A stretch of DNA of 64,000 nucleotides, taken from positions 192,001 to 256,000 of the forward strand of contig CAWHHI010000011.1 in the NCBI GenBank assembly GCA_963829055.1, read 5' to 3'. The translations under genes were made by a program, and so were the position numbers. This DNA comes from an uncultured Gemmatimonadaceae bacterium (GTDB lineage Bacteria; Gemmatimonadota; Gemmatimonadetes; Gemmatimonadales; Gemmatimonadaceae). The notes beneath the pieces were generated by a model. It was given only the letters and a program-made list of their open reading frames with translations. It did no database searches and was not told the origin of the DNA. Positions 244 to 64,000 of the stretch are shown here, piece after piece (within the stretch, counting starts at the first letter, position 1; every line of letters starts with the position of its first letter).

Positions 244-831
244 CGCTCAACTCCTGGTACAGCCACCCACGCGCTTTGACCCAGTCGCGTGCGACCGTGC
301 GCTCCGTGAGGCCGAGCACTGCTGCTATCTCTGGTTCTGTCATGCCGCCGAAAAAACGACACTCGACCACGCGCGCCTGACGAGGATCGAGGGCGGCCAG
401 TCGTTCGAGCGCTTCGTCCATTGCCACGAGGATGTCATCGCGTTGATTCGCCGTTAGGCCGCTGCGATTCGCCGACTCGAGCTCCTCGAGTGAAATCGCT
501 CGCCTGCTCGGGCCGCCACGGCGAAGCGGCGTGGTTTCGTCTCGCGTGATCGACGAGCACACGGCGCATGACGTGAGCAGCCACGGCGAAGAAGTGCGCG
601 CGATCGTTCCACTGCACGCGCGTTTGATCGACGAGCCGCAAGTACGCCTCGTGGACGAGGTCCGACGTGGCGAGCGTGTGCCCAGTGGCTTCTTGCCCGA
701 GCTGGCGATGCGCGATGCGCGCAAGGTCGCCGTAGACGAGAGGAACGAGCCGATCCAGGGCGCCCGGCGTGCCGCCGACGGACGTGTTGAAGCGCGTCGG
801 TTATCGCGTGTTGCTGGCCTGCCACCACCAT
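230..831 (-). CDS. ECF-type RNA polymerase sigma factor (kinase-associated type), frameshifted
   Basis: Pieces in different frames give LVHEAYLRL, DRAHFFAVAAHVMRRVLVDHARR and RQARVVECRFFGGMTEPEIAAVLGLTERTVARDWVKARGWL. Indels near 775 and 525. Confidence 0.9.
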
Positions 832-999
832 TGTGTCCCTCGCTGCTCACGATGTCAGGATTTTCGCCGATCCTGCGCTTCTTCTCCTGCGGCAGACCGA
901 ACCCGGTGCCGAAGCTACGTCCCGCTCACCGGACCGGCAATGCGGAACGCGACGTCGCGCCTCTGCTCAGCGCCGCACACCTCGCTCAGGAGATCAACG

Positions 1000-1972
1000 A
1001 TGCGCTCGCTTACGAAAGCCGTGGTTCTGGTGGTTCTCCCTGCCCTTGTCGGCCTTGCTGGCTGCACCAGAGACGTTCCGACGTCGCCGGTCGCCGTGCC
1101 AACTCGGCGAGCGTGGGGACGTTTCCGGATGTCATCTCCCGGAACGGATTCGCGCCCGAGGGTATCGCGTTCGGTTCCCGGCCCGACGTTCTATGTGGCC
1201 TCGCTTGCCACAGGTGCCATCTATCGCGGTGATGCCAGAACCGGCGAAGGCAGCGTGGTAGTGCCGGCCCTGCCCGGGAGGTCGGCATGCGGCGTGAAAT
1301 ACGACCCGCGTGGAGACCGGCTGTTTGTCGCTGGCAGCGCCACCGGTCAGGCGTACGTGTACGATGCCTCCACCGGAGCGACAATCGCCGTGTATCAACT
1401 GGCCGATCCGACGGCCGGTCGACGGCCATCAACGACGTCGTCGTGTTGCACGACGCCGTGTACTTCACCGACAATTCGCGCCCCGTCGTCTACCGCCTTC
1501 CGCTCGGCCCGAACGGCGCGCTACCACCGGCCAGTGCCGTGCAGACGATTCCGTTGACTGGCGACTTCCAGTTCATCCCTGGCGGCATCAAACGGAAACG
1601 GGATCGTTGCGACTCCCGATAACCGCCATCGCATCGTCGGGAACACGTTCGGCGGAGCGCTCGACGCTCGTCGACCCGCTGACCGGACATGCGACCACGA
1701 TCGACGTCGACGGCAACGTGCAATTCGGCGACGGGCTCCTGCTGGTCGGTCACACCTTGTACATGGTTCAGGGTCGGTTCAACCGGATCGCTGTCGTCCA
1801 GATGAACGCGGACTTTACGAGCGGAACGGTTGAACGGACGCTCACGAGCGCGGCGCTGGCGTTCCCATTGGCGATCGCGCTCTTCGGCGGCTCGTTATAC
1901 GCGGTCAACGCGCGGTTCAACGTCCCGCGGGGCCCGTCGGTCGAGTACGACGTGATTCGCGTGCAGCGGTGA
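1000..1972 (+). CDS. SMP-30/gluconolactonase-like beta-propeller lipoprotein, frameshifted
   Basis: RBS AGGAG and ATG 1000; lipobox LAGC; blade motifs PEGIAF, AVYFTDN, GDGLLLVGHTLYMV and LYAVNARF spread over several frames. Confidence 0.75.
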
Positions 1973-2042
1973 CGCTCGATAGCGCCTTCCGTTGAGGCGC
2001 GAGCGAAACGGGATCGAGAGTGGTATCGAAGACGCGAACAAG

Positions 2043-2070
2043 AACGCCACAAGCGCGCGCTTGTGGCGTT
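2043..2070. terminator. Perfect 28-bp palindrome, probable terminator
   Basis: AACGCCACAAGCGC-GCGCTTGTGGCGTT downstream of the gene ending at 1972. Confidence 0.55.
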
Positions 2071-2403
2071 TCAGCGAAACCGATCAGGGCGGCGGTACTT
2101 GAACCCGCGGCCCCTCACCCCCATAGGCGGACGGGCACCGCGAGGTTGCGGAAAACCAAGGCCGCGGACGAGCAATTTCCACCGCGGGTCGCCGTGAAGC
2201 GTTTCGAAGGCAGGTGGAATGGCGATGGCATCGAGAACCGGCGCTCGGCGCGCATATCCGCGATCCGACCAGAGGAAGGCTCTATCGGCGTCCGCGAGCG
2301 CGGCGTATGTCATTGCGACGCTCACCGGTGAAGGTACCGGCGCGACGCCGATTGCAGCAGCCGCCGAGTATGTCTCGCGCCGCACGCTGATTGAGCCACG
2401 CAC
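2071..2403 (-). pseudogene. C-terminal TPR remnant of a kinase/regulator
   Basis: VAMTYAALADADRAFLW...AFETLHGDPRWKLLVRGLGF resembles TPR tails of TolB-like/TPR regulators. No N-terminal part. Confidence 0.55.
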
Positions 2404-2588
2404 CAGCAGTCGCGATGCCGGTCGATAGTCAGGCCCATGTTCTGGCGCGAGCGCGCCTAACGTGGGCTACCATTAGAGCCGGATCGCGAGCACGCAACGC
2501 CGGCCGCGCAATCGAGCGCCGGTGTCGCAGGCTGTACGTGCCTTGTTGCGCGTGCCAGCGACTACGGGTCGCCACATTCGGACGGCGC

Positions 2589-2900
2589 TCATTCGGCGCG
2601 AATCGCCACCAGCGGGTCCACCACCGCAGCCTTCCGCGCCGGAATCCATGACGCGAGCGCCGCCACCCCTACGACCACCAGCGCGATCGCCACGCCAACC
2701 AGCGGCATGTTGATCGTCACTTGTTCGCCGAACCGCGACACGATCACGTACAACGCGGCGACGCTCAGGGGCAGGCCAAGCACGACACCCAGCATGCTGA
2801 GTCGGACGCCGCTCATGAAGAACATGCGGATGACCTGGCGCGGACGCGCCCCGAGCGCGACGCGGACGCCGATCTCTCGGTGTCGCTGGGCGCACCGCGA
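2589..2900 (-). pseudogene. C-terminal FtsX fragment of an ADOP/MacB-type ABC permease
   Basis: REIGVRVALGARP...ASWIPARKAAVVDPLVAIRAE; upstream part missing. Confidence 0.75.
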
Positions 2901-3139
2901 GGGCCACCAGTGGAGGGCGCATTTCCAGGTAGTCCCGTCAAGTCCCGAGAAACCGCCGCTCCCTGTGGCTGGCGTCTGGCTGATCGTCTATACTCCCATG
3001 AAGGGATTCCCGACCCGGCGGCGACGAATAGCTCCGGCAGAGCGTTCATTCGTACAGCGTCCGGGCCCCGCGCCTAACGTTGCGTCCCGGATGCGAGAAC
3101 GGCCACCGTCGCTCGTACGCCTCACGAGTCGTTCCAGCT

Positions 3140-3535
3140 ATGCCGGCACTGATGGGTCCGCAGTGGCGGTGGGCGCGTGTCGCGACGGTGGCCGTTCTCG
3201 TCGGCCCGGCTGGTTGCGACGATTATGGCGGCGGTCCAACAACGCCAACCGCGACCCAGCACGTGCTCCGCGTGCAGGCGAGCGATGCCGGTTCGGGGAC
3301 TGTCACCTCCCCGAATGCGTCGCCGCAGATCTCGTGCACGATCACGGCCGGCGCTCTGTCAGGAACATGCGGGGTCGCCTACCCCAACAACTCGGCGGTG
3401 CAGCTGGTCGCCACGCCTAACGGTGCATCGACATTCACCGGATGGAGCGGGGGCTGCACGGGGACGGACCAATGCGTGGTAGACATGTCGCAGGAGCGCA
3501 CGGTAGTCGCCTCCTTCGCGCGGGCTAGCCAGTAG
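3140..3535 (+). CDS. Small lipoprotein with divergent InlB B-repeat domain
   Basis: Signal ending PAGC; VQLVATPNGASTFTGWSGGCTGTDQCVVDMSQERTVVASF matches the B-repeat pattern. Confidence 0.7.
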   Translation: MPALMGPQWRWARVATVAVLVGPAGCDDYGGGPTTPTATQHVLRVQASDAGSGTVTSPNASPQISCTITAGALSGTCGVAYPNNSAVQLVATPNGASTFTGWSGGCTGTDQCVVDMSQERTVVASFARASQ

Positions 3536-3893
3536 GAGGTAGGTCGTGTGGCGCGGAATTGCAGCGACCATCGCGGCACTTGCGCGCCTACGGTCGAGTG
3601 GGGCTACGGCCGGACTGCTTGCGGCTCGTGATGTCGGCAACCGTTCCCGCCGCACGGTACGGTCGACCAGCGCGTCGTAAAAGAAGCTTCCGCGACCAGC
3701 GATCCAACGGAGCACCGGCGTCGGCTCGGCGCGGAATTCGTGGGCGTACCGACGCGCTCGTCGCGCGCCCGGTCGATGGCGGTGGGAATCAACGCGGCTC
3801 GGTCGTCCGGATGAACCTTGGCGAAGAACTCGGTCGGTCACCAGAAAACCCGCCGGGCTTGTAGCCAAACATTATTGTGAACGTCCGACCATG

Positions 3894-4580
3894 TCATCCG
3901 GTTGGCAAATCCCAGTCCCACGTGCCGGTCTGCCCGGCAGCGAGCGCACTCTGCAGCCGTTCCCGCGTACGCTCGAGCTTCTCCATGTGTCCGGCAACAG
4001 CGGCACGTGCCTGCGCCTCGTCTGCCGAGGCATCGGCCAGAATGAGATTCGCGAACAGGGCAGCGGCGATTGCTGCGAGTGTGCCGAGCGCCAGCAATAC
4101 CAAGGTGCGACGCTGTTCCGACTCGGCCGCCGCCACCCGTGCGGCGAGCGCTCGCGCTTCTTCATCGGAGATCGCCTGCTCGACGCGGCGAATCTCGTCC
4201 ATCAACACGCGACCGCGGCCGGTTTCGATGCGCGCGATGGCCGAATCGAGCCCGAGGCTACGGCGAACTTCGACGGTCGAGTCCATGAACGCGATGCTGG
4301 CCCGTGCCAGTGTCGTCAACGTGTCGAGACGAGCCTGCCGCGTCGCGTTCGCGCGCGTCAGCTGGCGGATACTCGCGAGTCGACGAATCGAGGAAGGGTC
4401 GCCCGCTCACGAACGGCGCGAGGTATACTGGACGCCGGGTGAGAAGGAACCCTCGTTGGCCGGCCTCGGGCACCGCGAGGTACGCAAGGAAGGTCGCCGT
4501 TTCCGCGCGGACTTCGTGTGCGTGTGCGTCCAACACGATGGTCGTTCGCTCGCTCGGTCGCGCCGTTGGCTCGGAGCGGC
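3894..4580 (-). pseudogene. CHASE3-TM-PAS sensor kinase remnant
   Basis: EAGQRGFLLT..YLAPF and GRVLMDEIRR (CHASE3), a TM helix, then QTGTWDWDLPTG* truncated at the PAS start. Confidence 0.65.
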
Positions 4581-4630
4581 CGGGCGAGCGCCGGCTTGAA
4601 CCACGGTGCTCGTCGATCGCCCCCTCGATC

Positions 4631-6646
4631 TCAACGTAGATCCATCGCCGGGTTCCTCGTGAAGAATCCCACCGGCAACAGGGAGAAGCCGACGTGCGCT
4701 ACGGGCATGACTGGCCAGTCCTCAGGGCGCGGGATGTGTGTCACACCAGTGCTATACCACGTGACGACGTCCTCGTTCTCCACGCTCTCGTTGTCGCTGA
4801 TCCATTGAGGGAGGCCGTCACCGCCGCGACTCTGGTTGGGGTAGTAGCCGGCCGCGTTCATCTCGTCCGGCTTGTACCGCGTCACCCAGAAGTGATGATC
4901 GACGAACCCCGCGCGCTGCCGCAGCCGCGATCCAGGGAGCGAGTACGGCACCGAGTTGTCGCCAGGAACGAGGACGAATCCCGTCGGCGCACCTAACGAG
5001 TTCTTCACGGTGGGGTTGACCACCATCCATTTGCGCGCCTGCGGCAGATCGAGATCGCGGCCGGCGGTCTTCTCGTCCTTCAATACCGCTTGCTCGATGC
5101 GGAACGCGTTTCCGTCGGGGTTCACGTCCCGGTTGGTCTCGGGCAGCGCGTTGATCTCGACGACGGAATTCTTCTGTCCGTCGACATCGAAATCGAGCCG
5201 GAAGTTGAAGAAGTGCTGGTGATGCGGCGCGGACACGTATGGCGCGACCAGATGCGCCCCATCCATGGTGTGGCCCGAGCTGTCACTGCTCATCGACGTC
5301 AGGGTCACGCCCTTCGAGAGCATGATGCCGGTGAGGTCGGCCTGCATCTGCATGCTTCCGTCCTGACGGAAGATCCAGTTGATGCCGTAGTCGTAGTTCC
5401 CTACGCCCGCCAGATACCCAATGACCAGCTCGCGTCCGCGACGACTCTCGGTGTGATCGACGTTGATGTCGAAGTGCTTCCAGAGCAGTCCCCCGTCGCG
5501 TTCGTAGATCGTCACCACGCCCTTGGCGGTGTAGGCCTTCCCGAAATCGTCGGCGAAGTCCGCATTCATGAACGTCGCGTTGTCGGGCGCATCCTTGCCG
5601 GGGATCAGGTAGCTCGCGAGCCGACCGATCCCGTATTCGCCCACGTCGAATGCGTTCCGCCAGGACCACGACTTGTCCTTGTCGCCGTAGGGGACGACCA
5701 TCTCCGAGAGCGACGCGCGGTACAGAATCGGCCGGACCTTTCCGCCGTCTTCATAGCCCACCGTGTACAGGACGAGCCCTTCACGCGGATGGAGCGCATA
5801 GCGAAAGCGCCATTTCTGCCAGCGGATCTCGTTTCCGCGTATCTGGAAGTCGGCGCCGTTCGGCTGGGTGATCCTGAGCGGCTTGAGCGCGGCGCGTAGC
5901 GCCCCGGCATTCTTCGCCTCGAGTTGCGCCGCGTCTTTCGAGATCGGCACCACGCCGCGGTCGACGAACTCGACGACCTTTCGCTGGTTCATGTCGACGA
6001 CAATGTCCAGGCCCTCGATCGGTCGGGAATAGACACTCGACGTGGCATTCGTTCGATCGAAGCTCAGGGCCCTGATCAGACGCGGCCCTTCGGCTGTCGT
6101 TAGGCCGACTGTTCCCGGCGCCCAACCGTCGACGTGAACCCGGCTCAAGTCCGTAAAGCCGCGCCGCTTCATGGCGTCCTGCCAGCGAGGATCGGCCTTC
6201 ACGATCTCGGGAGCACTCGACAGCTCCTCGACGAGAAAGCCCGGCTGCACGCCGGGCATCTCTTTCCACGACGAAACCGACGCAGCCTTGAGGTCCGCGA
6301 CAGCTTCGAACGTCTTGTTCGTCGCGCGATCGTAGACGACGGCGAACGCCTCGCGGCGAAACAGGGCGCCTTGGCTGTACGCGAGGACCTCGTCCTTCGG
6401 CGGCTCCTTCAGAACGACGATCGGAAAGAGCGCACCCTTGGGGAAACGATCCGCAGCCTGGATGATCTTGACCGCAGCCGCGATCTCGCCACGGTTGAGC
6501 GGATCGAGCGGGTGCGCGACGCTCGGTGCGGATTTTGAAGGCTTGGCCGAGCCGCTGGCGGCGGGCCGTTGGGCCTGAAGCGCGGACCCCGCGACTGGGA
6601 TCGCGAGCGAAATCAGTGCGGCGACTGCCAGCGGTGTGATCTTCAT
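4631..6646 (-). CDS. tynA: Copper-containing primary amine oxidase, secreted
   Basis: Signal peptide MKITPLAVAA; TPQ motif GNYDY; Cu ligands HHQH and THIPRPEDWPVMP; catalytic-region AFDVGEYG. Confidence 0.95.
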   Translation of the reverse strand: MKITPLAVAALISLAIPVAGSALQAQRPAASGSAKPSKSAPSVAHPLDPLNRGEIAAAVKIIQAADRFPKGALFPIVVLKEPPKDEVLAYSQGALFRREAFAVVYDRATNKTFEAVADLKAASVSSWKEMPGVQPGFLVEELSSAPEIVKADPRWQDAMKRRGFTDLSRVHVDGWAPGTVGLTTAEGPRLIRALSFDRTNATSSVYSRPIEGLDIVVDMNQRKVVEFVDRGVVPISKDAAQLEAKNAGALRAALKPLRITQPNGADFQIRGNEIRWQKWRFRYALHPREGLVLYTVGYEDGGKVRPILYRASLSEMVVPYGDKDKSWSWRNAFDVGEYGIGRLASYLIPGKDAPDNATFMNADFADDFGKAYTAKGVVTIYERDGGLLWKHFDINVDHTESRRGRELVIGYLAGVGNYDYGINWIFRQDGSMQMQADLTGIMLSKGVTLTSMSSDSSGHTMDGAHLVAPYVSAPHHQHFFNFRLDFDVDGQKNSVVEINALPETNRDVNPDGNAFRIEQAVLKDEKTAGRDLDLPQARKWMVVNPTVKNSLGAPTGFVLVPGDNSVPYSLPGSRLRQRAGFVDHHFWVTRYKPDEMNAAGYYPNQSRGGDGLPQWISDNESVENEDVVTWYSTGVTHIPRPEDWPVMPVAHVGFSLLPVGFFTRNPAMDLR

Positions 6647-6709
6647 AGTCAGGAGACTCGGGAAGCTTCCGACATGGGGTTCGTCGCCTTCCTTGCGGAC
6701 CACTCCCAA

Positions 6710-8266
6710 TTAGCGATCGGGTGCCGCCCCTTTCCGCGTCAGCTGGGCGTACGACGACATGGCCCCGGTCAGCGGATCGTCGGTCGTCATCGCCGCGGCC
6801 CACCCGCGCAGCGTATCACCCTGCAGAAGCAGCCCCACGCCCACGTTGTGCGGGAAGCGGCGTGCCTCCTCGCTCGGGATCGTCCCGGCGAACTGACCGT
6901 TCAGCATCCGGTTGCGGAACGTCGGCGCGTTCAGCACCGTCCACAGCGCATCAGTCCCGCCGAGCCTAACGTGGATGTCGTCGGCCTTGACGAGGAGCGC
7001 GATTGGCGTGGTGGCGCCGTCATACGTGCGGACCGTCCCCGTCCACTCTCCGGTCAGTTCCGCCGGACTGGCAAAGGCGACCGTCGGCGTGGGCGGTCGC
7101 CCGGGCGTTGGCGCCTTGTATCCGGGAAGCACTGCGGCGGCAATGTCGAGCGCGACGCGATGGGGAGCCGCGCCGCCCGTGTTCGCCAGCGCGACAATGA
7201 CGACGTTGTGCTCCGGGTACAGCTTGAGGGTCGTCGCCACGCCCGGCATCCCACCTGTGTGCGACACGACTCGCATGCCTTGCTCGTTGCCAATCAGCCA
7301 GCCAAGCCCGTAGCCGCTCGTCGTGTCGCCCGGCGTGGCGCGCCGGTGCATGGCGTCGAGCGTGGAGTCTTTCAGCACCGGACGCTGGTCCTTGAGATGA
7401 TCCTCGAGGTGGAACATCCCGAAGCGCACGAGCTCGTGCGCGCTCGTGTACACTGCGGACGCCGCCCAATGATCGAAGTCGTAGAACGCGATCGGCTTCC
7501 CCTGCGCCGTGTACCGCACGGCCGAATTGGCGATCCCCGCGCCGGTCCCGATCGTGGTGGTCGTCATGCCTAACGGCTTGAAGACCTCGTCCCGCATGAA
7601 CTCCTCGTACGGTCGCCCGGAGACCTTGGCGATGATTTCCTCGAGCACGCCGTAGCCGAGGTTGGAGTAGTTGTAGGTGGCGCCAGGAGGATAGACGGTG
7701 ATCGCGTACCGGGTGATCGCCTCGTCCATCAATGGCCGGGTGACCGATCCACCCTCGTAGAAGAAGCGGTAGTGCAGCGGCAATCCGGCGGTGTGCGACA
7801 TCACCCGCCTAACGGTGGCGTCCGACGCCGAGCCGGCGAGGCCGGTGATCTTGGCCGCGCCCAGATAGTCGTTGGCGGGGCGGTCGAGGTCGATCTTGCC
7901 CTGCTCCACGAGCTTCATGACGCCCGTCGCGGTGATCGGCTTGGAGATCGACGCCATCGAGTACAGCGTGGTCGGCGTTGCGGCCACCCGGCGCTCGACG
8001 TCGGCGAAGCCGAAGCCTTCCTCCCAAATGATTCGGCCGTTCCTTGCCACCGCGACTGCAATGGACGGCGTCCTGGTCGAGTCCATCACGCGGCGGATGT
8101 GGGCGCGAAGGGAGTCGAGCGCCACGGCCGGTATGCCGGCGTCCTTTTGAGCCGCACTCGCGCGCTGGGCGGAGAGCGGAGTCGCCGGCATCAGCGGAGC
8201 GGCGACAGCACTCGCGAGCGCGAGGATCAGAAAGCGCGAAGCCACGCGCCGTTTGGGAATGAGCAT
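6710..8266 (-). CDS. Serine hydrolase, beta-lactamase (class C-like) family
   Basis: Signal peptide; SISK, YSN and HTG motifs. Confidence 0.92.
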   Translation of the reverse strand: MLIPKRRVASRFLILALASAVAAPLMPATPLSAQRASAAQKDAGIPAVALDSLRAHIRRVMDSTRTPSIAVAVARNGRIIWEEGFGFADVERRVAATPTTLYSMASISKPITATGVMKLVEQGKIDLDRPANDYLGAAKITGLAGSASDATVRRVMSHTAGLPLHYRFFYEGGSVTRPLMDEAITRYAITVYPPGATYNYSNLGYGVLEEIIAKVSGRPYEEFMRDEVFKPLGMTTTTIGTGAGIANSAVRYTAQGKPIAFYDFDHWAASAVYTSAHELVRFGMFHLEDHLKDQRPVLKDSTLDAMHRRATPGDTTSGYGLGWLIGNEQGMRVVSHTGGMPGVATTLKLYPEHNVVIVALANTGGAAPHRVALDIAAAVLPGYKAPTPGRPPTPTVAFASPAELTGEWTGTVRTYDGATTPIALLVKADDIHVRLGGTDALWTVLNAPTFRNRMLNGQFAGTIPSEEARRFPHNVGVGLLLQGDTLRGWAAAMTTDDPLTGAMSSYAQLTRKGAAPDR

Positions 8267-8529
8267 GGGGCCCGTCAGTCGTTTGAGATGGGGGAATGTT
8301 AGCGCCCAGTCCGTCGAGTGACGAGGGATCGTTGCCGGGCGAGAGAACCACCCCCTCCTGATTGCGGCCAGACCGCTTCCACAAGGGCTCGCGACCACCT
8401 TTATTCCCGTGTAGGGCGCCGCTCGCAACGTCCGTCGCCGCACCCGTGGAACAGCGAGTGTCCGGCGGAGACGCGCATCGCGGCGCGGCGACACGAGCGG
8501 CAGCCTAACGAGTCTACGGGAGGTGAGGC

Positions 8530-8736
8530 GTGGACAGCTTCTCGGGATGGGAACGGAGCAAGCTCGACCAGCTCGTCGAACTGCAATCGCGAACCATCGA
8601 GCTGGTGGGGATGGTACTGGCGACGCCGGCTCCGCCAGAAACGAAAGTCGCGGAAGCGGCGGAGCTCATCCGGCACTTTCGGGAGCTGAGAGACACGCTG
8701 ACCGAGCAAGCGACAACGCAGGGGCGCTCGCCGTGA
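8530..8736 (+). CDS. Hypothetical helical protein (68 aa)
   Basis: GGAGGTG RBS before GTG; protein-like composition. Confidence 0.5.
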   Translation: MDSFSGWERSKLDQLVELQSRTIELVGMVLATPAPPETKVAEAAELIRHFRELRDTLTEQATTQGRSP

Positions 8737-8790
8737 TGGAGTCGCCGGGTTGACTGTGCCTGCGCCTAACGCTGTGGCTTCGGCGTTCGT

Positions 8791-9159
8791 TTATGCGGCC
8801 TGCACGGCAGACTCGGCTGCGGACCGGCGGACGAAGGTGCGGCCCACTCGCTTTGATCGAATCCAATACGCCGTCCACGCGAAGGACACCAGGAATGTCT
8901 CGACGTGTGGCCGATTGGTGTCCAATGCCGCGACGCCCGTAGCCACCACGAACGCGATCCAATACGTGCGCGCGTACCGCGGCCACTGAAGAGCCAACAT
9001 CACGCCGCCGAGGAACAGGCCGGCGAGAATGGGCACCAGCAGCGCGCGCTGGAGATCTGCGGCACTGACGCTCCGAATCCCAACCGCTGCGGCGCCTGTC
9101 CCGACCGCGATGGCCCCAAGGACAAAGACGACCAGCCGCCCTCTTATGTGTGGAAGCAT
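8791..9159 (-). CDS. Hypothetical membrane protein
   Basis: Four hydrophobic segments; C-terminal YWIRSKRVGRTF. Confidence 0.6.
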   Translation of the reverse strand: MLPHIRGRLVVFVLGAIAVGTGAAAVGIRSVSAADLQRALLVPILAGLFLGGVMLALQWPRYARTYWIAFVVATGVAALDTNRPHVETFLVSFAWTAYWIRSKRVGRTFVRRSAAESAVQAA

Positions 9160-9757: not shown

Positions 9758-9783
9758 CGCGGGCTGTGCTGTATGGCCCTTGC

Positions 9784-10881: not shown

Positions 10882-10951
10882 GCGGTGGTTTCGGGATGGT
10901 GGCGGGGTATTCTAGGCAGCGGGACACGGACAGCGCCAATGCAGAGTATCA

Positions 10952-48712: not shown

Positions 48713-48719
48713 CAAGGAA

Positions 48720-54777: not shown

Positions 54778-55057
54778 TAGATTCCTCCCGGATCGTGCAC
54801 CCCGAATCGTATCGAGTTTCTCCGCAACGTGGGATTCGGTATCGATTCGCCACTGCCGTATCACCCCGAGCTGATACTCGAGTCATGACGAGCCGATTCG
54901 GAACACGCCGAGTTGCTGGCATTGCCCTCGTCGCGGTCGCGTTTCCGTTCGCGACCGCGACGACGCAGTCCACGACGCAACCGGCCGCGGCGCACGCCGC
55001 GACCCAACGGTCGGCGGGTGATTCTGAGATTCGTGACGCGCTCGATTTGACTGTCGC

Positions 55058-55993
55058 GTGAGCGGTCGAGCCTCCGCTGCCGGCGCGCCGACGGGCGCGC
55101 TCGCGGGGCGCGTGTGCGTCGTGACTGGCGCGACGCGCGGCATCGGGCGCGCGACGGCGATGCAACTCGCTCGGCTGGGCGCCGACGTCGTGATCGTCGG
55201 GCGCGATGAGGCGCGCCTCGATGCCGTGCGAATCGAAGCGAAGCACGCGGCCGGTAACGAGCGCGTGCACTGGGTGCGCGCTGACTTCGCTTCACTGGCG
55301 TCGGTACGACTCGCCGGTCAGGAGATCGCACAACGTTGGCCGGCGATTCACGTGCTCGTCAACAATGCCGGCGTGAACACCGCTCGCCGTACGACGAGCG
55401 CGGACGGCTACGAGATGACGTTCGCCGTGAACCACCTCGCGCCGTTTCTGCTGACGGCGCTTCTCGTTCCGGCGCTTACGGCAGGTGCGGTCGCTCGTGA
55501 TGCGCCATCGCGCATCGTGAACGTCGCATCGGTATTCGCGCACTTCGGTTGGCTGAGCCTCGCCGATCCCATGTTCGAGCGCCGGCGCTACGGCTCGACG
55601 CAGGCGTACAATCAGTCCAAGCTCGCGAACATCGTGTACACGATCGAGCTGGCGGCACGGCTCGAACGCTCGGGGATCACGGTGAACTGTGTCTCGCCAG
55701 GGCTCGTCGCAACGGATCTCCTGCGTGAGCACGCGTGGTTCGCGGCACGATGGCTTCGTGGATTGTGGGAGCGGGTGCTCCTCTCGCCGGACCAGGCGGC
55801 TGCTCGCATCGTGCGCGTCGCCACGTCGGACGCACTCTCGGGTACGACGGGCCAGTGCTTCGCTGGTTCAGCGCGTCCGATCGCCGTTCCTGGTCGCGCG
55901 TCTGATCCGGACACTCGGCGCCGGTTCTGGGAGCTGAGCACAGCGTTGACGGATGCGCCGGTGCTGGACACGACGCCGACTGTCGTGCGTTAG
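55058..55993 (+). CDS. Short-chain dehydrogenase/reductase (retinol dehydrogenase-like)
   Basis: TGATRGIG, NNAG, FAVNHLAPF, YNQSK. Confidence 0.93.
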   Translation: MSGRASAAGAPTGALAGRVCVVTGATRGIGRATAMQLARLGADVVIVGRDEARLDAVRIEAKHAAGNERVHWVRADFASLASVRLAGQEIAQRWPAIHVLVNNAGVNTARRTTSADGYEMTFAVNHLAPFLLTALLVPALTAGAVARDAPSRIVNVASVFAHFGWLSLADPMFERRRYGSTQAYNQSKLANIVYTIELAARLERSGITVNCVSPGLVATDLLREHAWFAARWLRGLWERVLLSPDQAAARIVRVATSDALSGTTGQCFAGSARPIAVPGRASDPDTRRRFWELSTALTDAPVLDTTPTVVR

Positions 55994-55995
55994 GC

Positions 55996-57200
55996 ATGCA
56001 CGAGCGCGCCGACCGTCGCACGAGAAACACATCGCTCGGGGAACTGGCGCGGCTGTTTCTCAAGCTCGGCACCATAGGGTTCGGCGGGCCCGCAGCGCAC
56101 ATCGCGCTCATGGAAGACGAGGTCGTGCGCCGCCGTGGCTGGCTGACACGCGAGGCATTTCTCGACTACGTCGGCGCGACGAATCTCATTCCGGGCCCGA
56201 ATTCGACGGAGCTCGCGATCGAGATCGGACGCGACCGGGCGGGCTGGCCTGGGCTCCTGGTGGCGGGGGCGTCGTTCATTGTACCGGCCGCGCTGATCGT
56301 CGGCGTGATCGCCTGGGGCTACGTGCGCTTCGGCCAACTGCCGGCGATGCTCGCGCTGCTCGCGGGCGTGAAGCCGGTGGTGATCGCGATCGTCGTGCAG
56401 GCACTGTGGCGGCTGGCCCGCACGGCGGTGAAGACGGTGTGGCTCGCGGCACTCGCGGCCGGCGTCATCGTGGCGGTCGTTGCCGGCGTGCATGAGTTGC
56501 TCGTGCTACTGGGTGCAGCGGTGGTCGCTACTCTCGGTGCTTTGCGAAAGCGCGGCGGCGCGACGCGCGCCCTTGGAGCGGGACTGCCGTTAGGCGCAGC
56601 GTGGCCGCCGGCTGCCCCGACCGTGTCGACGGCAACATCTGCGTTAGGCATGGCGGCTATCGCACCGGCGGTCTCGCTCTGGCCACTCTTCGGGATCTTC
56701 CTCAAGATCGGCTCGGTGCTGTTCGGCAGCGGCTATGTACTGCTCGCGTTCCTTCGCGCGGACTTCGTGCAGCGACTCGGCTGGCTCACGGAGCGGCAGC
56801 TGCTCGATGCGGTCGCGGTCGGGCAGGTGACGCCGGGGCCGGTATTCACGACGGCGACGTTCATCGGCTACGTGTTAGGCGGTGTTCCGGGGGCCATCGT
56901 CGCGACAGTCGGGATATTCCTGCCTGCATTCGTGTTCGTCGCGCTGAGCGGGCCGCTCGTTCCGCGCCTGCGCAAGTCGCCCGTTGCCGGGGCGGCGCTC
57001 GATGGCGTGAACGCAGCGTCGTTCGCGCTCATGGCGCTGGTCACGTGGCAGCTCGGGCGTGCGGCCATCGTGGATGTGCCGACGGCGCTGCTGGCGCTGG
57101 GTGCTGGAGTGCTGCTCGCTACATGGCGCATCAACGCGGCGTGGCTCATCCTTGGCGGTGGAATCGTGGGCGTTTGCTGGTTCGCTGCGCGCTTGAGGGC
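55996..57200 (+). CDS. chrA: Chromate efflux transporter (reads in frame into next gene; end approximate)
   Basis: GFGGPAAH, PGPNSTE, FGSGY, TPGP; two CHR domains. Confidence 0.92.
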
Positions 57201-57262
57201 CCTCTATCGGGATGCGCGCGATTCCTTGACTCCGCGCCTTCGGCGCTTCGCTCGGAATGACA
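57195..57262. repeat. Right half of palindromic repeat element
   Basis: Similar to 58091-58155; ends CGCTCGGAATGACA. Confidence 0.8.
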
Positions 57263-57264
57263 CC

Positions 57265-58023
57265 ATGGTCAACGCCTCTGCACTGCTGGTCTGGTCATTC
57301 GTTGCCCTCGCGCTCATCGTGGCCGCCGCGTTCGTGGCGGGCGTCTACCGCTCGGGTGCGACGGTCTCCGGCTCAGGCGCAGGCCGGCAAACGGCTGCTG
57401 TCGCGCTCGCGACCATTGCGTGGCTCGCCATCACGCTCGGCCTGGCGGCATCGGGGCGACTCAGCTTTACCACGAGGCCGCCGACAATGCTCGTGTTGAT
57501 CGCCGTGACGGTCGTGCTCGCGGTCGTTCTGGGGACGTCGCGCTTTGGGCTGCGGCTCGCGACGGGGTTACCGCTCGCGGCCCTCGTCGGCGTGCAGGCG
57601 TTCCGATTTCCGCTCGAGCTCATTCTGCATCGCGCTTACGTCGAAGGGCTCATGCCCGTGCAGATGAGCTTTTCCGGGTTCAACTTCGACATCCTGACCG
57701 GCTTGTCGGCGATCGTCGTCGCGCTGGCGCTGGTGCGCAAGCCGGGCTCGCTCGTACTGGTGCGCGTGTGGAATACGGCGGGGGCGGTGCTGCTGACGAA
57801 CATCGTGACCATCGCCCTGCTCTCCGCTCCGACGCCTTTCCGGTTCTTCCATAACGAGCCGGCGAACGTCTGGATCGCGCGGGCGCCGTGGGTCTGGCTG
57901 CCGACGGTGTTCGTGTTCGCGGCGATCCTTGGCCACATCGTGGTCTTTCGCCGGATCCGTCACGAGCTGAGCTCGACCGTGCGGTCCGCGGTCGCGAGTT
58001 CCCAGGCACGGATCACGATCTAG
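57265..58023 (+). CDS. Hypothetical membrane protein
   Basis: Multiple TMs; QAFRFPLE, GFNFDILTG, PWVWLP. Confidence 0.8.
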   Translation: MVNASALLVWSFVALALIVAAAFVAGVYRSGATVSGSGAGRQTAAVALATIAWLAITLGLAASGRLSFTTRPPTMLVLIAVTVVLAVVLGTSRFGLRLATGLPLAALVGVQAFRFPLELILHRAYVEGLMPVQMSFSGFNFDILTGLSAIVVALALVRKPGSLVLVRVWNTAGAVLLTNIVTIALLSAPTPFRFFHNEPANVWIARAPWVWLPTVFVFAAILGHIVVFRRIRHELSSTVRSAVASSQARITI

Positions 58024-58031
58024 TGATCGGC

Positions 58032-58232
58032 TGTCATTCCGAGCGGAGCCGCGAAGCGGCGTAGTCGAGGAATCGAGACTCTCTTCTGTAGAGGGGCCCT
58101 CTACCACCGAGTCGCGATTCCTCGACTCCGGCCTTCGGCTCCGCTCGGAATGACATCGTCCTCGACTGCGCGCCTCCGGCGCTCCGCTCGGAATGACAAC
58201 CCGCTCGGAATGACGGACGGCTCCGCTCGGAA
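58032..58232. repeat. 124-bp palindromic REP/MITE-like element plus three partial right arms
   Basis: TGTCATTCCGAGCGGAGCC...GGCTCCGCTCGGAATGACA with nested hairpins; extra CCGCTCGGAA(TGAC) arms ending near 58198, 58214 and 58232. Confidence 0.88.
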
Positions 58233-58318
58233 AAACACCTAGCACTTCCCCCGGGTCGTGCGTAACCTCGGGGTAACCATCGACAATCCGCCACACACGC
58301 GTCACCTGGAGCGCAGCC

Positions 58319-60700
58319 ATGCTCGCCTCTCGTTTTCGGCACATCCGTGCCAGCCATTCGGCTCTCGCCATCACTGCCGCGCTCGCCTGTGTGAGCGGCG
58401 CGGTCATCGGCGCAAACGCCCGCCCCTGACGGGAAGCGCCCCATGACCTTCCTCGACCAGCAGAACATGCGGCAGGTCGGGTCACCGGCGCCGAGCCCCG
58501 ATCGGAAGTGGCTGCTCTACACGATCTCCGTGCCGGACTGGAAGGAGGCCAGGCGCCAGACCGACATCTACGTCGTGTCGATGGACCAGGGCGTCGGGTC
58601 GACGCGGCAGCTCACGTACACGAAGGACAAGAGCGAAGGCGCAGCCGACGCTGGGCGCCTGACGGCTCGTTCTTCGTGTTCTCATCGAACCGTGACGCGC
58701 CGGCGAATCCGCCTGGCGGCGCAGCGCCGGCGCCGGAAGCGCCCGCTGGCGGCGGTGGCTTCGGCGGTGGCGCCGGAGGCCCCGGCTTCCAGCTCTACAT
58801 GATGCACCCCGACGGCGGCGAGGCGCGCAAGATCACGGACGCGAAGGACGGCGTCTCGACGTTCGCGTTCAGCAAGGACGGCAAGTGGCTCGTCTACCGC
58901 AGCGGCAAGGCGGGCGAGGAGCAGCTCTATCGCGTGCCGGTCGCCGGAATCGATAGCGCCAAGGCCGAGCAGATCACGCGGCACCCGACGGGCGTTGGCA
59001 TCTGGCGCTTCGCGCCGACCGGCAACCGCATCTACTTCATCACGGCCGACACGATCGATCTCGACGAGAAGCTGCGTCGCGAGAAGCGGTTCACCGTCAA
59101 CATCCGGAATCCCGAGACGCCGCTGTCGAGCCTGTGGGCGTTCGACGTCGACGGCAAGAAGACGACGCGCCTGACGAAGGACACGATCGATCACCGTCAC
59201 CGACTTCGAGATCGTCGGACGACGGCAAGTGGGTCGCGTTCCGCGGCATCTCGTCGAACCGCTACAAGCGGAACATCACCGAACAGTCGATCAACGGCGA
59301 CGACTTCCTGCTCGACGTCGCGAGCGGTCAGATCGAGCGGCTGACGAACAACAACGAAGTCGGCGAGAGCACGCCGAGCTTCTCGCCGGACTCGAAGTGG
59401 ATCGCGTTCTCGGCGCCCGATGACCTGACGCGGTACACGATGAAGAACCACCGCGTGTACATCCGCGCCGTCGCCGACAAGGGCGGCACAGTGGCGCAAG
59501 CTCGGCACGGACTTCGACGGCGACGTCGGCGTCGGTTTCTGGTCCGCAGGACGGCAAGACGATCTACTTCAACGAAGGCATCCGGGCGACGAACAAGCTG
59601 GTCGCGCTCGACGTCGCGACGGGCAAGGTCGCGTCAGCTCACGAACGAGAAGGCGTCGGTGAGCGCGAACATGGATGAGGACACGAAGCGCGATCCTCAT
59701 CAACTACGCCGACCCGATGACGCCGCCGACGATCTTCACGGTCGCATCGATCGATCAGATCGCGAACCGCAGCGTCGTGGAAGCAGCTCACCGATGCGAA
59801 CCCGCAGGTCCGCAACATCGCGTTAGGCCAGGAAGAGGAGATCACGTGGAAGTCGACCGACGGCAGGACGGTCGGCGGCGTTCTCGTGAAGCCGGTCGGC
59901 TACCGTCAGGGCCAGCGCTATCCGCTCATCGTCGCGATTCACGGCGGCCCGGCGGCGGCGGACGTGCTCGGCTTCAACGGCGGCTACGGCGCGCAGGTCG
60001 TACGCCGGCGCGGGCTACGCGGTGCTCAAGCCGAACTACCGCGGCTCGACGAACTACGGCGAGAAGCACAAGACCGACATCGTCGGTGACTACTTCCGTC
60101 TCGGCTACGACGACATCATGACGGGCGTGAACCACGCTGATCGCGCAGGGCATCGTCGACAGCACGAAGATGGGCGTGCTCGGGCTGGAGCGCCGGCGGT
60201 CACTGGTCGAACTGGATCCTGACGCACACGAATCGCTTCAAGGCGATCAGCACGGGTGCCGGCACGACGAACTGGATCTCGATGTACGCGCAGAGCGACA
60301 TGCAGCGCGAATCGTCAGTTCTACCTCGGCGACAAGCTGCCGTACGACAACTTCGACGCGTACTGGAACCAGTCGCCGATCAAGTACATCAAGAACGCGA
60401 AGACGCCGACGATGATTCACGTCGTGCACGACGATCCGCGCGTGCCGCGTCCGCAGTCGGAGGAGCTGTTCATGGCGCTCCGGCAGCTCGGCGTGCCGAC
60501 GGAGTTCTACGTCTATCCGGGCGCGAGCCACGGCATCCCCGATCCGCGCAATCAGTTCGTCAAGTCGATGGCCGAGATGGCGTGGATGGATTACTGGGTG
60601 CGCGGGAGCGGCAAGAAGTTCGCGTGGCGGGACGTGCTGAAGACGCTCGACGATTCGACGGGCGCGCGGGCGGCCGAGACCCAAGCGGTGATTCAGGAGA
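58319..60700 (+). CDS. S9 prolyl oligopeptidase family with beta-propeller, many frameshifts (end approximate)
   Basis: SPDxKW repeats, IHGGP, PNYRGS, GWSAGG, DPRV, SHG. Confidence 0.9.
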
Positions 60701-60729
60701 TCGTTAGGCTGCCGCTCGCTCGACAATCT

Positions 60730-60773
60730 GCCCCCGCTGACTCGGCCATCGTACTCGGCCGGTCAGCGGGGGC
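60730..60773. terminator. GC-rich hairpin after S9 peptidase
   Basis: GCCCCCGCTGAC...GTCAGCGGGGGC. Confidence 0.5.
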
Positions 60774-60891
60774 AAGTGCATCTGAGGTAGCGAGCGGCGT
60801 GGCCGTTATCGACCTGCTCGTGGCCGGAATTGGACCTGGAGTGCGTGTAGTGAGGACCAGAACACGAACTACACAATTCCAGGAGTCGTTA

Positions 60892-62233
60892 ATGCTTTCG
60901 TTTTCCACACGACCCGGCCACGCGATCATCGCGCTGGCCGTGGTCGCGCTCAATGCATGCGTCGATACACCGAATCCGACCGAAGTCGCGGGTACCACAT
61001 AGCCCGAGCCTCGCCGTCGGTGACGTTATTCTCGTCACGAACACCAGCGGTGCCGGTGTGGCCGGTTCCATTCGGCAGGCGCTCAATCAGGCGACTGGCG
61101 GTGAGATCATCCGCTTCGACCCGAGTCTGGCCGGCGCGAAGATCGTCCTCGATACCACCCTCGAAGTGCCGAAGAACGTGACCATCGAGGGACCTGCAGA
61201 CAAGGGCATCACGCTCAGCGGCGGAAACAAGGCGGGTGTTCTGCACGTGCACGAAGGCGCCAAGCTCGTGAACCTGACGATCACCGAAGGCAAGGCACTC
61301 GTCAGGGCGGCGGCATCCTCGCCGAAGGCGAGTTGATACTCGATCACACCACTGTCGCCGGCAATCAGGCGAGCGTCAGCGGGGGGATCAGTGGTGACGT
61401 GATCACGCTCACCAATAGCACCGTCACGAACAACCTGGCGCGCGCCGACAATGCGCTCGGCATCGCCGGAGGCATCCTGTACAACGGCACTGGACGGCTG
61501 ACGCTGATCAACAGCGTTGTGTCCAACAACGCTCCGAACGGGATCTCGCGGCGCGGCACCTTCCCCACCAAGGATATCGTCACGTTCGACAACTCGATCA
61601 TCGCGAACAACGGCGCGCAGAGTTGCATTGAGAAAGAAGGCGTGTCTTTCACGGGCCGAAACATCTCGAGCGACAATACGTGCGGCGTCAGCGCACTCAA
61701 CATGCTGGTGGTGGACCCGCTGCTCGGGCCGTTGGCCGACAACGGCGGACCGACACAGACGCGCGCACTCGATCGCAACAGTCCCGCGATCAACGCGACG
61801 GACTGCCGCGACGATCACGGTCGACCAGCGCTATGTCGCGCGCGATTCGAAGTGCGACATTGGCGCGTTCGAGTTCGTCTTCACGACCGTCACACTCACG
61901 GTCAACGCGACCGCACAGGTCGATCCGAAGACCGGAATCGCGGTGGTCGCGGGCACCGCGAAATGCAGCCGCGACGAGACGTTCGACCTCGCCGTTAGCG
62001 CGACGCAGGACCAGAGAGCCAAGCGTGTCCCGACCGTCGTGCAGGTGTCGAAGACGCTGCCGCTCGTGTGCGGCAAGACGGCGCAGCCATGGATCGTAGC
62101 GCTCGCTCCTGCGAGCGGACAGGCGTTCGAGGCGGGGACGGCTGTTGCGTCGGCTCAAACGCTGAACATCGCGAATGGGGTCACCGCTGCCTCAACGTCC
62201 GGCGACATCAAGCTCGTCTGGGCGAAGAAGTAG
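60892..62233 (+). CDS. Lipoprotein with parallel beta-helix and choice-of-anchor Q-like domain, frameshifted
   Basis: Lipobox LNAC; GSIRQA; NSTVTNN repeats; LGPLADNGGPTQT..SPAINA..DQR..CDIGAFE. Confidence 0.8.
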
Positions 62234-62596
62234 GCGCCGGGATCCGACCGGCCCCTCAGACAAGGGGAACGAACGGATCAATCTGATCGATCGGATTGAT
62301 TCATCGTGACGCTTGGTCGGTCTCGCAAACACCGGTGATGTTTGAAGAACGACCTCGGGAGACTTGAGCTTCCGGGGTCGTTCTTGCTTCAAACGGACGG
62401 TCTTGACGCGGAGGAGTCTCGCGAATTCAGGAAGCAATCCGCTCGATCCGACGCATCCGTTCGACGCTCGTCTGAGAGGTCAGACGCTCACCGATGTGCC
62501 CAGGCCGGCTACGATGACATCACAGGAGGTCCCTCATCTGCCCGCTGCGCGGGCTCCCGCGCTCGGGATGACAACTCGGCCGCGCGGGGTGACAGA

Positions 62597-64000
62597 TCAG
62601 ATCTCCGGGCCGAGATTCCCTGCCTCGAGCGACGACTCTCGGCAATCGCCTTGAGACGCGCGTCCTGGTTCTTCCGAAGGCGCGAATGCAACGACGCGCG
62701 CGGCGATACGCCATCGGGATGAAGATGCGTGCGCAGTCGAGCTGCGCCTTCGCCGCATCCTCGCTTCGCCAGCCGCTCGATCTCCCACGTCGTCCGCGAC
62801 AGCACCGTCGTCGCGAGGTAAATGTCGATCGCCGCGTTCGCCATGCGCTCCTGCAGAAACTGACGGTCGATGATCCTCTTGCCGTGGCGCAGGATCGCGT
62901 CCTCGACCCCGAGCGCGAGATCGTGCACCGAGCGTCTCGATCAGCCCCGCCTCGCGCTCGAGCGCCGGGTGCACGAGCGTGAATCGCTGCTTCGTGATCT
63001 GCCGACGCGCCCGGCCCGCGAGATACTCGCCGATGGCGCCGAGCGAACGGATCGGCGCCTTGAAGGCCGTGCCTAACGCCTTGAGCCGCTCGCCCGGCTG
63101 CTGCAGTCCCATGAGCGCGATCAGCGCACGCAGCACCTCGTTCGTCCCCTCGAAGATCAGGTTGATCCGCGAGTCGCGCACCGCCTGCTCGTACGGGATA
63201 CTCCTTCGAGTAGCCAATGCCGCCCGCGATCTGCAGCGCCTCGTTCGACGCGCGGAACGCGAGCTCCGACCCGAACACCTTGCACGCGGCCGTCTCGAGC
63301 GAGAAGTCGATGCCGCCGCGATCGACCATCCCCGCCGTCACCATCACCGCCGAGTCGAGCGCGTAACACTCGGCCGCGAGCGTCGCGATCTTGCGCTGGA
63401 TGATCTCGAACGATCCGATCGGCCGACCGAACTGCTCGCGCTGTTTCGCGTACGCGATCGCCTCGCGCATGATGCGCCGCGTTCCGCGCGCCGAGCCGGC
63501 CGCGAGCCCGAGCCGCCCCGAGTTCAGGATCTCGAGCGCGATGCGGAACCCCTGGCCCACGTCGCCGAGCCGGTCTTCCGACCGGCACGCGAACGTTCTC
63601 GAACGAGATGGCGCGCGTGTCCGACGCCTTGATGCCCATCTTCTCCTCGAGCTTGCCGAGCTGTCACGCCGTGCGCGTGCGCGTCGACGACGAACGCGGT
63701 CACCCGCGCCTTTCGCACGCCGTCGACCTCCACCGGCACCTTCGCGAACACGGTGAGGATGTCGGCGTAGCCCGCGTTCGAGATCCAGATCTTCGTGCCG
63801 TTGAGCACGTAGTGCGTGCCGTCGGCGCTCGGGACGGCGGTCGAGCGCATGGCCTGCGCGTCGGAGCCGGATCCCGGCTCCGTGAGACAGAACGCCGCGA
63901 TCGACTCGCCGCTCGCGCACTTCGGCAGGATAGCGCTGCTTCTGCTCCTCCGTTGCCGAACAGGACGATGCCCTTGCACCCGATCGACTGATGGGCGCCG
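62597..64000 (-). CDS. Acyl-CoA dehydrogenase (VLCAD/ACAD9-like), 5' end off window, frameshifted
   Basis: [48 protein letters not shown]. Confidence 0.92.

What the first reader, a model, noticed from the sequence alone, without database searches (positions are those of the whole stretch)
452..63078. Highly iterated non-palindromic motif (G)CCTAACG / CGTTAGG(C) throughout the window
Seen: about 59 exact heptamers by manual count, roughly 29 CCTAACG and 30 CGTTAGG (approximate starts include 452, 2456, 3073, 3416, 6098, 6965, 7569, 7808, 9783, 12004, 16292, 16438, 27211, 29610, 34082, 38073, 41268, 49969, 56588, 59821, 63072). Most extend to GCCTAACG. A rough zero-order estimate at 67% GC gives about 7. 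Inside genes it occurs in several frames and forces codons rare at high GC (TTA-GGC, CTA-ACG, CCT-AAC, GTT-AGG). I saw none in the IS630 or in 30.0-34.0 kb. Established: HIP1 and DNA-uptake sequences behave like this, whereas Chi/KOPS are strand-polarised, which this is not. The motif also equals the commonest integron core GTTAGGC. Inference: a genome-wide signal (uptake tag, methylation/repair-driven motif, nucleoid-protein or recombinase site) with an unknown cognate protein.
Basis: partly seen in the sequence, partly recalled or inferred. Interest (0 to 1): 0.8.

Follow-up and report, generated by a model that had tools for sequence, protein, structure and literature searches.

The report
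Cross-phylum genome-wide DNA signal GCCTAACG
An eight-letter DNA word appears about once per gene across the genomes of certain Gemmatimonadota and Verrucomicrobiota bacteria and a phage, is kept even at the cost of rare codons, and acts on about 150 bases either side, pointing to an unidentified protein that reads it.

Summary
Confirmed and extended. The window holds 59 CCTAACG sites (29+/30-; 3.3 expected). The genome holds 6,391 (0.82/kb), 22-fold over an amino-acid-preserving null, on both strands, without replichore polarity. Sites are conserved between species (193 of 308), enrich Pro-Asn in the proteome and are missing from foreign DNA. Two new properties: a site's advantage falls when another site of either orientation lies within about 300 bp, and silent-site GC rises about 2 points next to sites, both decaying over roughly 100-150 bp. 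The word is enriched in 91 of 301 genomes of the family, patchily on the tree, in a few other Gemmatimonadales, in 17 of 151 Chthoniobacterales (another phylum; dialect GCCTAACGA), in a plasmid of cultured Gemmatirosa kalamazoonensis and in one tailed phage. It equals the integron attC core, but integrase does not track it; nor do methylases, TopIB, Ku, HU, ComEC, ComEA or a minor pilin. Best reading (0.45): a site-specific protein promotes short homologous replacement around the word, as DUS/USS or HIP1 do, driving the word up and GC-biasing its flanks. Main rival (0.3): nucleation site of a protective nucleoid protein. The cognate protein was not found. No description in seven literature searches.

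The parts
452..63078 (.). Dispersed set of 59 CCTAACG sites, 44 of them GCCTAACG; a 64-kb sample of a genome-wide signal (6,391 sites)
2456..63078 (+). 29 plus-strand sites starting at 2456, 3073, 3416, 4992, 6965, 7569, 7808, 8504, 8765, 9783, 11198, 14693, 16480, 18367, 20618, 20691, 22769, 24129, 24648, 34082, 35996, 36622, 37038, 38756, 45564, 49577, 51818, 53769, 63072
452..60708 (-). 30 minus-strand sites (CGTTAGG on +) starting at 452, 6098, 10605, 12004, 16292, 16438, 19557, 23158, 27211, 29610, 29722, 29948, 37258, 38073, 40229, 41268, 42484, 43299, 43911, 44076, 45724, 46468, 49969, 50279, 52688, 55988, 56588, 56642, 59821, 60702
16438..16486 (.). One of the rare close pairs (divergent, 42 bp apart, at a gene end); only 65 neighbour gaps under 50 bp genome-wide against 260 expected
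29955..34081 (.). 4.1-kb stretch without a site (DUF3604 and HupE/UreJ-rotamase genes); 181 gaps over 4 kb exist genome-wide, so this one is not exceptional
44256..45382 (-). IS630-type element (DDE_3 domain at 44258-44842; transposase frame interrupted by a stop near 44943) without any site: recently arrived DNA lacks the word

Best explanation
GCCTAACG (tolerated variants A or C at the first position, GCATAACG, GCCTAACA; weak preferences out to about 13 bp) is the double-strand binding site of an unidentified sequence-specific protein that makes DNA carrying the site more likely to replace its homologue, at uptake or at the recombination step, in tracts of about 300 bp. Alleles with the site therefore spread (molecular drive, as modelled for DUS/USS) until coding cost stops them; a second site inside the same tract adds little; and the extra conversion leaves a GC-biased halo. 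Shown: enrichment, conservation, orientation-independent local redundancy, GC halo, absence from foreign DNA, patchy cross-phylum spread, presence of type IV pilus, comEC, comEA and dprA genes. Inferred: that a protein binds it, that recombination is the process, the tract length, and horizontal spread of the protein.
For: Log-odds advantage of the word at amino-acid-compatible positions rises from 1.3 (another site within 50 bp) to 4.25 (500-1000 bp); Pro-Asn-GNN occupancy 19% to 73% against 5.7% neutral; by hand this fits a decay of about 150 bp. Within-gene silent GC is +2.1, +1.9, +1.4, +0.9, +0.6 points at 12-100 bp and near 0 by 160-250 bp; 25 control words average +0.3, maximum +0.9; the halo is two-sided and survives control for local protein divergence and repeats in G001/2/5, G014, G190 and a pool of other positive genera. 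Halo (log-odds about 0.18) over drive (about 4.2) implies a GC bias near 4%, a plausible size (hand calculation; bacterial gBGC recalled). All orientations repel. Sites conserved 193 of 308 against 24-58% for 30 control words; rare codons kept 52-69% inside and 10-24% outside the word; protein divergence is higher beside sites. Pro-Asn observed/expected 0.92 in negative samples, 1.39 in G000, 1.87 in G014+G190. These match hallmarks of DUS/USS: about 1 per kb, scarce in new DNA, in permissive positions, peptide enrichment, no added uptake from two sites within 100 bp (PMC7811141, PMC2817400, PMC2397512, passages read). G000 has pilA, three minor pilins, pilMNOPQ, comEC, dprA and a comEA match.
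Against: No cognate gene found. ComEC is in positive and negative genomes alike (5 of 5; 50 of 53), ComEA-like genes likewise (5 of 5). The PilW-like minor pilin is only 30-40% identical among positive genera, equally present in negatives and not found in 14 Chthoniobacterales with this query, unlike a shared receptor. In Neisseria spacing matches tract length (PMC2397512); here the inferred tract (300 bp) is a quarter of the spacing. Repulsion was not seen in the 81 sites sampled from G190 below 100 bp nor in six Chthoniobacterales loci, where pairs under 50 bp are in excess (16 against 7.4), and the halo is inconclusive there. One control word equals the motif's conservation when amino acids are unchanged (0.78). 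Density is lower in the core region of contig C16 than on accessory-looking contigs, opposite to neisserial DUS. No recombination was measured.
Confidence: 0.45

Rival explanations
1. The word nucleates an abundant sequence-specific nucleoid protein (or loads a DNA-processing machine) that covers or slides about 150 bp each way. Weak direct selection for coverage (about 4/2Ne per site suffices) keeps sites and makes close ones redundant; shielding from deamination or oxidation gives the GC halo.
For: Same two kernels; graded 13-bp preference typical of a binding protein; a single small gene is easier to move between phyla than a pilus part; plasmid and phage carry host-like densities; all 9 positive Chthoniobacterales tested lack a canonical HU match (best E about 1e-20) that all 11 negatives have (E 2e-26 or better).
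Against: No hard-core plateau or overshoot and no 10.5-bp periodicity in pair spacing; HU is unchanged between positive and negative genomes of the window's family and the Chthoniobacterales contrast is probably one lineage; known site-specific nucleoid proteins use tens of sites, not thousands (recalled).
Confidence: 0.3
2. The word is a local repair signal (strand discrimination or repair-enzyme loading) that lowers mutation nearby and protects itself; it accumulates by second-order selection or a mutational ratchet.
For: Would give enrichment, repulsion and a GC halo with one length scale.
Against: Synonymous divergence is not lower near sites: -0.1 and -0.8 points of 41 within 45 bp of sites present in both genomes, control s.d. 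1.3, which excludes a strong effect (silent sites are near saturation, so an effect of 10-15% is not excluded). No methylase found to mark strands.
Confidence: 0.1
3. The word descends from integron biology: integrase or a domesticated integrase domain acts on single attC core boxes, or genes are old cassettes.
For: attC sites of G021 end in CGTTAGGC and begin with GCCTAACA or GTCTAACA; GCCTAACA is a tolerated variant; integrons occur in both phyla; G000 has an integrase with altered catalytic residues.
Against: Integrase found in 60 of 78 genomes regardless of motif and not found in positives such as G004, G183, G209; the altered integrase's nearest match is in negative G115; GTCTAAC, common in attC, is not enriched (TCTAACG 77); sites sit in frame in ribosomal-protein and RNA-polymerase genes and both orientations are equally common at gene ends.
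Confidence: 0.07
4. HIP1-like: an orphan methyltransferase marks the word and a methylation-dependent process enriches it.
For: HIP1 is similar in abundance and conservation (PMC5861425, abstract start and passages) and raises transformation when methylated (10.1101/2024.09.10.611283, abstract).
Against: PF01555 found in 0 of 3 positives, PF00145 in 1 of 5, PF02384 in 4 of 5 but not in G000 and not as one shared orthologue; G000 is 86% complete and other methylase families were not searched. Specificity is graded.
Confidence: 0.05
5. Compositional or repeat artefact (codon bias, dispersed repeat, assembly error).
For: Maximal-order Markov models absorb the word, as expected for a dominant word.
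Against: 22-fold over an amino-acid-conditioned null; unrelated flanks; present in hundreds of independent assemblies and a finished plasmid.
Confidence: 0.01

Closest known systems
DNA uptake sequences (neisserial DUS, pasteurellacean USS)
   Same: Non-palindromic, both strands, about 1 per kb, scarce in new DNA and the rRNA region, in permissive positions yet conserved, enrich their peptides, close copies redundant, related dialects; in Chthoniobacterales some tandem and inverted clusters at gene ends.
   Different: Different sequence; 8 bp core forcing rare codons in a 67% GC genome; no inverted terminator pairs in G000 (close opposite pairs are the most depleted); shared by two phyla; no ComP-type pilin hit; uptake not shown; local GC halo not among the passages I read.
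Cyanobacterial HIP1 (GCGATCGC)
   Same: Octamer, 15-300-fold over-represented, conserved, function unsettled, linked to transformation.
   Different: HIP1 is a palindrome with two cognate methylases; this word is asymmetric and no tracking methylase was found; short-range redundancy instead of a long period (long-range period not tested).
Chi and KOPS/SRS
   Same: Short asymmetric octamers read by DNA-processing machines (recalled).
   Different: No replichore polarity on C16 (142/187 and 145/155 either side of the skew switch); opposite orientations are redundant; halo two-sided.
Integron attC core box (RYYYAAC / GTTRRRY)
   Same: Identical letters to the R' end CGTTAGGC of attC sites in G021.
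   Different: Single boxes without L boxes or hairpin, inside housekeeping genes; independent of integrase presence.
Site-specific nucleoid proteins (MatP/matS, Noc, SlmA, ParB)
   Same: Dispersed chromosome sites with local spreading (recalled).
   Different: Those sites are palindromic, number in tens and are regionally confined; these number in thousands on all replicons.

Membership tests
DUS/USS | Hundreds to thousands of copies, both strands, scarce in foreign DNA, conserved in permissive positions | tested here: met
DUS/USS | Transformation machinery encoded (type IV pilus, ComEC, ComEA, DprA) | tested here: met
   also present in motif-negative genomes
DUS/USS | Known DUS/USS sequence and ComP- or ComN/PpdA-type receptor | tested here: not met
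   sequence differs; 4 pilins and 2 minor-pilin frames scanned gave no ComP_DUS hit; PilW-like pilin does not track; PilV- and PilX-like pilins not profiled
DUS/USS | Sequence-dependent DNA uptake | not testable with these tools
   needs a bench assay
DUS/USS | Inverted pairs in terminators | tested here: not met
   in G000 close opposite pairs are depleted; a few seen in Chthoniobacterales L247
HIP1 | Palindromic word | tested here: not met
   GCCTAACG is not self-complementary
HIP1 | Cognate orphan methyltransferases | tested here: inconclusive
   three Pfam families searched in 5 genomes each; none shared by positives; other families and methylation itself untested
Chi/KOPS | Strand polarity by replichore | tested here: not met
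   forward and reverse counts balanced in positive genomes
Integron attC | R and L boxes in an imperfect hairpin, in arrays | tested here: not met
   9 hairpin candidates genome-wide against 6,391 sites; no array beside the G000 integrase
Integron attC | Dependence on integrase | tested here: not met
Xer/dif | Word is a dif arm | tested here: not met
   the one dif-like site on C16 lacks the word
Site-specific nucleoid protein | Abundant cognate protein with a footprint | not testable with these tools
   HU, Ku and TopIB do not track

The most novel reading that the evidence does not exclude
One horizontally transferred DNA-binding protein, gained separately by Gemmatimonadales lineages and by a Chthoniobacterales lineage, reads GCCTAACG inside the cell and starts short gene conversion or coats DNA there; it has rewritten thousands of codons, the Pro-Asn content of proteomes and local GC in two phyla and in their phages: a mobile, self-amplifying recombination-hotspot or chromatin-nucleation system, possibly derived from an integrase core-binding specificity.
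Probability: 0.35. Interest if true: 0.93.

Novelty: new variant of a known kind. Interest (0 to 1): 0.83.

Why it matters
Only a handful of such genome-wide words are known (DUS, USS, HIP1, Chi, KOPS; list recalled). This one is shared across phyla, has natural gain/loss contrasts even inside one genus, and has a cultured carrier, so the cognate protein can be found by profiling or pull-down. The paired 150-bp kernels give a quantitative handle on two open questions: whether such words spread by drive or by function, and whether GC-biased conversion shapes bacterial base composition at fine scale. Practically, the word may be a tool for transforming Gemmatimonadota, a binning and contamination marker, and a phage-host predictor.

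Tried and rejected
Alternative dialects in negative genomes: none in 20-60 kb samples of 12 negative genomes; the one candidate (G007) was a local tandem repeat. Candidate cognate genes that do not track the word: integrase, TopIB (47 of 80; not found in positives G315, G091, G127 and others), methylases, ComEC, ComEA, HU, Ku (21 of 24 positives and 14 of 21 negatives in the family; 9 of 9 and 4 of 11 in Chthoniobacterales; not found in positives G083, G165, G081), PilW-like pilin. Shortlisting abundant basic proteins by codon adaptation failed because expression bias is weak. An unbiased cross-phylum proteome comparison could not be run, so the cognate gene remains open. Replichore polarity, helical periodicity, cassette-remnant orientation at gene ends, dif identity and a strong local-fidelity effect were tested and not found. 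Of 132 stretches in the three-site scan, 94 were set aside as repeats by flank similarity of 0.62 or more. A plasmid search with a window protein found nothing. Earlier-findings look-ups returned nothing.
Full report
1. Observation. The window has 29 CCTAACG and 30 CGTTAGG, 44 of 59 as GCCTAACG, with unrelated flanks; shuffles give 3.3. The window lies on contig C11 of G000. I place G000 in Gemmatimonadaceae from the look of its 16S gene (recalled, not classified by a tool) and because the records titled Gemmatimonadaceae and a Gemmatirosa plasmid carry the same word. Window genes are ordinary accessory genes; none explains the word. The IS630-type element and the 30-34 kb stretch lack it.

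2. Genome-wide anatomy. 6,391 sites in 7.78 Mb, on every contig, 25.7-fold over second-order Markov. The base before CCTAACG is G 5,004, A 827, C 428, T 132. ACCTAACG, CCCTAACG, GCATAACG and GCCTAACA avoid exact sites as exact sites avoid each other, while GCCTGACG, GCCGAACG and GCCTCACG do not, so the first four are functional variants. Weak silent-site preferences run to about 5 bases past the word. With my own gene caller, 4,218 sites lie in 6,908 genes against 345 in codon shuffles; CCT-AAC makes 1,367 of 3,489 Pro-Asn pairs; 508 sites use the stop codon; intergenic density is 0.90 per kb, highest between convergent genes (1.5), lowest between divergent ones (0.61). Both orientations are equally enriched at gene ends. 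Pro-Asn is 1.39 times expected in G000, 1.87 in G014+G190 and 0.92 in negative samples. Sites occur in rpoB, rpoC and four ribosomal-protein genes, not in tuf or recA. The four site-free 20-kb windows are compositionally foreign (tetranucleotide distance 0.16-0.21, median 0.055; foreign DNA or misassembly), and an 8.4-kb gap covers one rRNA region. No polarity across the skew switch of C16 and no helical period.

3. Local redundancy. Neighbour gaps under 100 bp: 149 against 509. Pair density is 0.27-0.31 below 100 bp, 0.53 at 150-200, 0.89 at 300-500; 40 control words never fall below 0.81; same, convergent and divergent pairs are all depleted. Conditioning on amino-acid contexts that allow the word, 4,006 are used against 183 neutral; the log-odds rises 1.34, 2.19, 2.85, 3.07, 3.36, 3.70, 3.88, 4.09, 4.25, 4.27 with distance to the next site from under 50 to 1,000 bp, by hand a decay near 150 bp. 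G014 (261 sites) repeats it: 0.31, 0.26, 0.62, 0.79; G190 (81 sites) does not below 100 bp: 1.74, 1.10; six Chthoniobacterales loci show no depletion and an excess under 50 bp, from tandem and inverted intergenic clusters.

4. GC halo. After removing gene and codon-family means, silent GC is +2.1 points at 12-25 bp, +1.4 at 40-60, +0.6 at 80-100 and about 0 from 160 bp; 25 control words: mean +0.3, maximum +0.9. It is two-sided and holds at fixed local protein divergence, and repeats in G001/2/5 (+1.5, +1.7), G014 (+1.7, +1.5), G190 (+2.5, +1.8) and pooled other positives (+2.3, +2.4); the Chthoniobacterales sample is inconclusive (-2.0, +0.2, +2.8). Within-gene mosaics of old and new DNA are not fully excluded as a contributor.

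5. Conservation. In 591 aligned gene segments of G001, G002 and G005 (samples of 0.2-0.4 Mb each), 193 of 308 G000 sites are intact, against 24-58% for 30 control words; with unchanged amino acids 170 of 219 (78%) against 38-78%. Rare codons are kept at 52-69% inside and 10-24% outside the word. Silent divergence is not lower near sites.

6. Distribution. With 150 or more GCCTAACG as threshold (hand counts): 91 of 301 genomes of the family, 3 of 127 genomes of other families of the phylum (genus g102), G030 of a third family (612 heptamers), and 17 of 151 Chthoniobacterales, one borderline. An RpoC tree of 51 genomes (quick method) interleaves positives and negatives: G046 is nested among positive g43 and g73, G045 is sister to positive G010, genus g52 is split; direction of gain or loss was not tested. 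Other lineages may have been missed. Four verrucomicrobial genomes hold 1,155-5,186 sites in a dialect GCCTAACGA (G before 96%, A after 78%). Plasmid NZ_CP007129.1 of Gemmatirosa kalamazoonensis has 778 against 20 for the reversed word. Among 121 viral stretches chosen by a two-site pattern, record G470, a tailed phage, has 87 heptamers in 82 kb on both strands against 10, and G471 and G472 have 27 and 22; 78 capsid relatives of G470 have 36 in 903 kb, so the word follows the host, not the phage family.

7. Cognate gene. Ten candidate families or proteins fail to track (see Tried and rejected). The attC core of G021 is letter-identical, which I cannot explain; integrase does not follow the word. 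G000 encodes a type IV pilus operon with three minor pilins, comEC, dprA and a comEA match in a short frame.

8. Mechanism. One length scale near 150 bp governs redundancy and halo, so something acts locally and symmetrically from the site on double-stranded DNA. Site-promoted homologous replacement explains both, has precedent in DUS/USS and HIP1, and gives a consistent GC-bias size of about 4% (hand calculation). A nucleoid protein that spreads and shields explains them equally and fits cross-phylum transfer better, but lacks precedent at this density. A strong antimutator is excluded. Odds: 0.45, 0.30, 0.10, integron origin 0.07, methylase 0.05.

9. Literature. Whole-word searches for CCTAACG and for four forms, an inside-word search (25 of 71 hits listed, none on this subject by title or abstract start) and four topic searches found no description; the library lacks most subscription papers, and no supplements (for example methylome tables) were read. 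Seen: passages of PMC7811141, PMC2817400, PMC2397512 and PMC5861425; abstracts of PMC13756078 and 10.1101/2024.09.10.611283; listings only of PMC12616744, PMC4390886 and PMC12901181. Chi, KOPS, ComP, MatP, Noc, SlmA, bacterial gBGC and catalytic residues of integrases are recalled.

10. Verdict. Real, apparently undescribed, functionally constrained, cross-phylum and testable in a cultured strain. It works like a DUS/HIP1-class signal but fails membership of each known family. Interest 0.83.

Noticed in passing
G000 C20:208011-208985 (L003, L027): Integron integrase with the catalytic lysine motif and first histidine altered and no cassette array beside it; the nearest match with the same changes is in motif-negative G115.
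   Followed up: partly
Chthoniobacterales G315-G317, G319, G347, G372, G381, G398, G446: All 9 motif-positive genomes lack a canonical HU match and keep only a divergent HU/IHF-like protein, while 11 of 11 negatives have it; probably one lineage.
   Followed up: no
G000 C6:5440-55038, C6:about 600000-623330, C11:1-about 40000, start of C4: Motif-free, compositionally foreign blocks near contig ends; possible contamination or chimeric joins; the C4 start holds a truncated integrase running into unrelated ABC-transporter sequence.
   Followed up: partly
G318:C114 (L323): One contig holds 67 of the 70 sites of an Acidobacteriota bin; likely misbinned, showing the word works as a binning marker.
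   Followed up: partly
G021:C95 and C80 (L007, L008): Large chromosomal integron arrays with homogeneous attC sites about 550 bp apart in a motif-negative Gemmatimonadales genome.
   Followed up: partly
G000 genome-wide; also L282, L286: A second repeat with words TGTCATCC, CTCGGAATG and AGGGATCT tops the 8-mer list; REP-like, also beside sites in Chthoniobacterales.
   Followed up: no
L022:8116-8207 and 12377-12468 (G007): Two inverted clusters of 13-bp tandem repeats built on CGTAACTGA, iteron-like.
   Followed up: no
window 11990-12020 and 16420-16455: Two near-identical flanks around minus-strand sites (GGATCCC..CGCCTAACGACACGTGCGGATTCG), a small local duplication.
   Followed up: no
window 23742-26439: Ser/Thr kinase and TPR frames overlap by about 400 bp, suggesting one gene split by a frameshift or an assembly error; frameshifts also appear in rpoB, pilB and pilC of G000.
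   Followed up: no
G000 C20:163144 and C5:54218: Isolated attC-like hairpins bounded by the word on both arms.
   Followed up: no
L533 (IMGVR_UViG_3300027776_000003): A second phage of the capsid family with 8 sites in 21 kb at 68% GC; possibly another host-matched phage.
   Followed up: no
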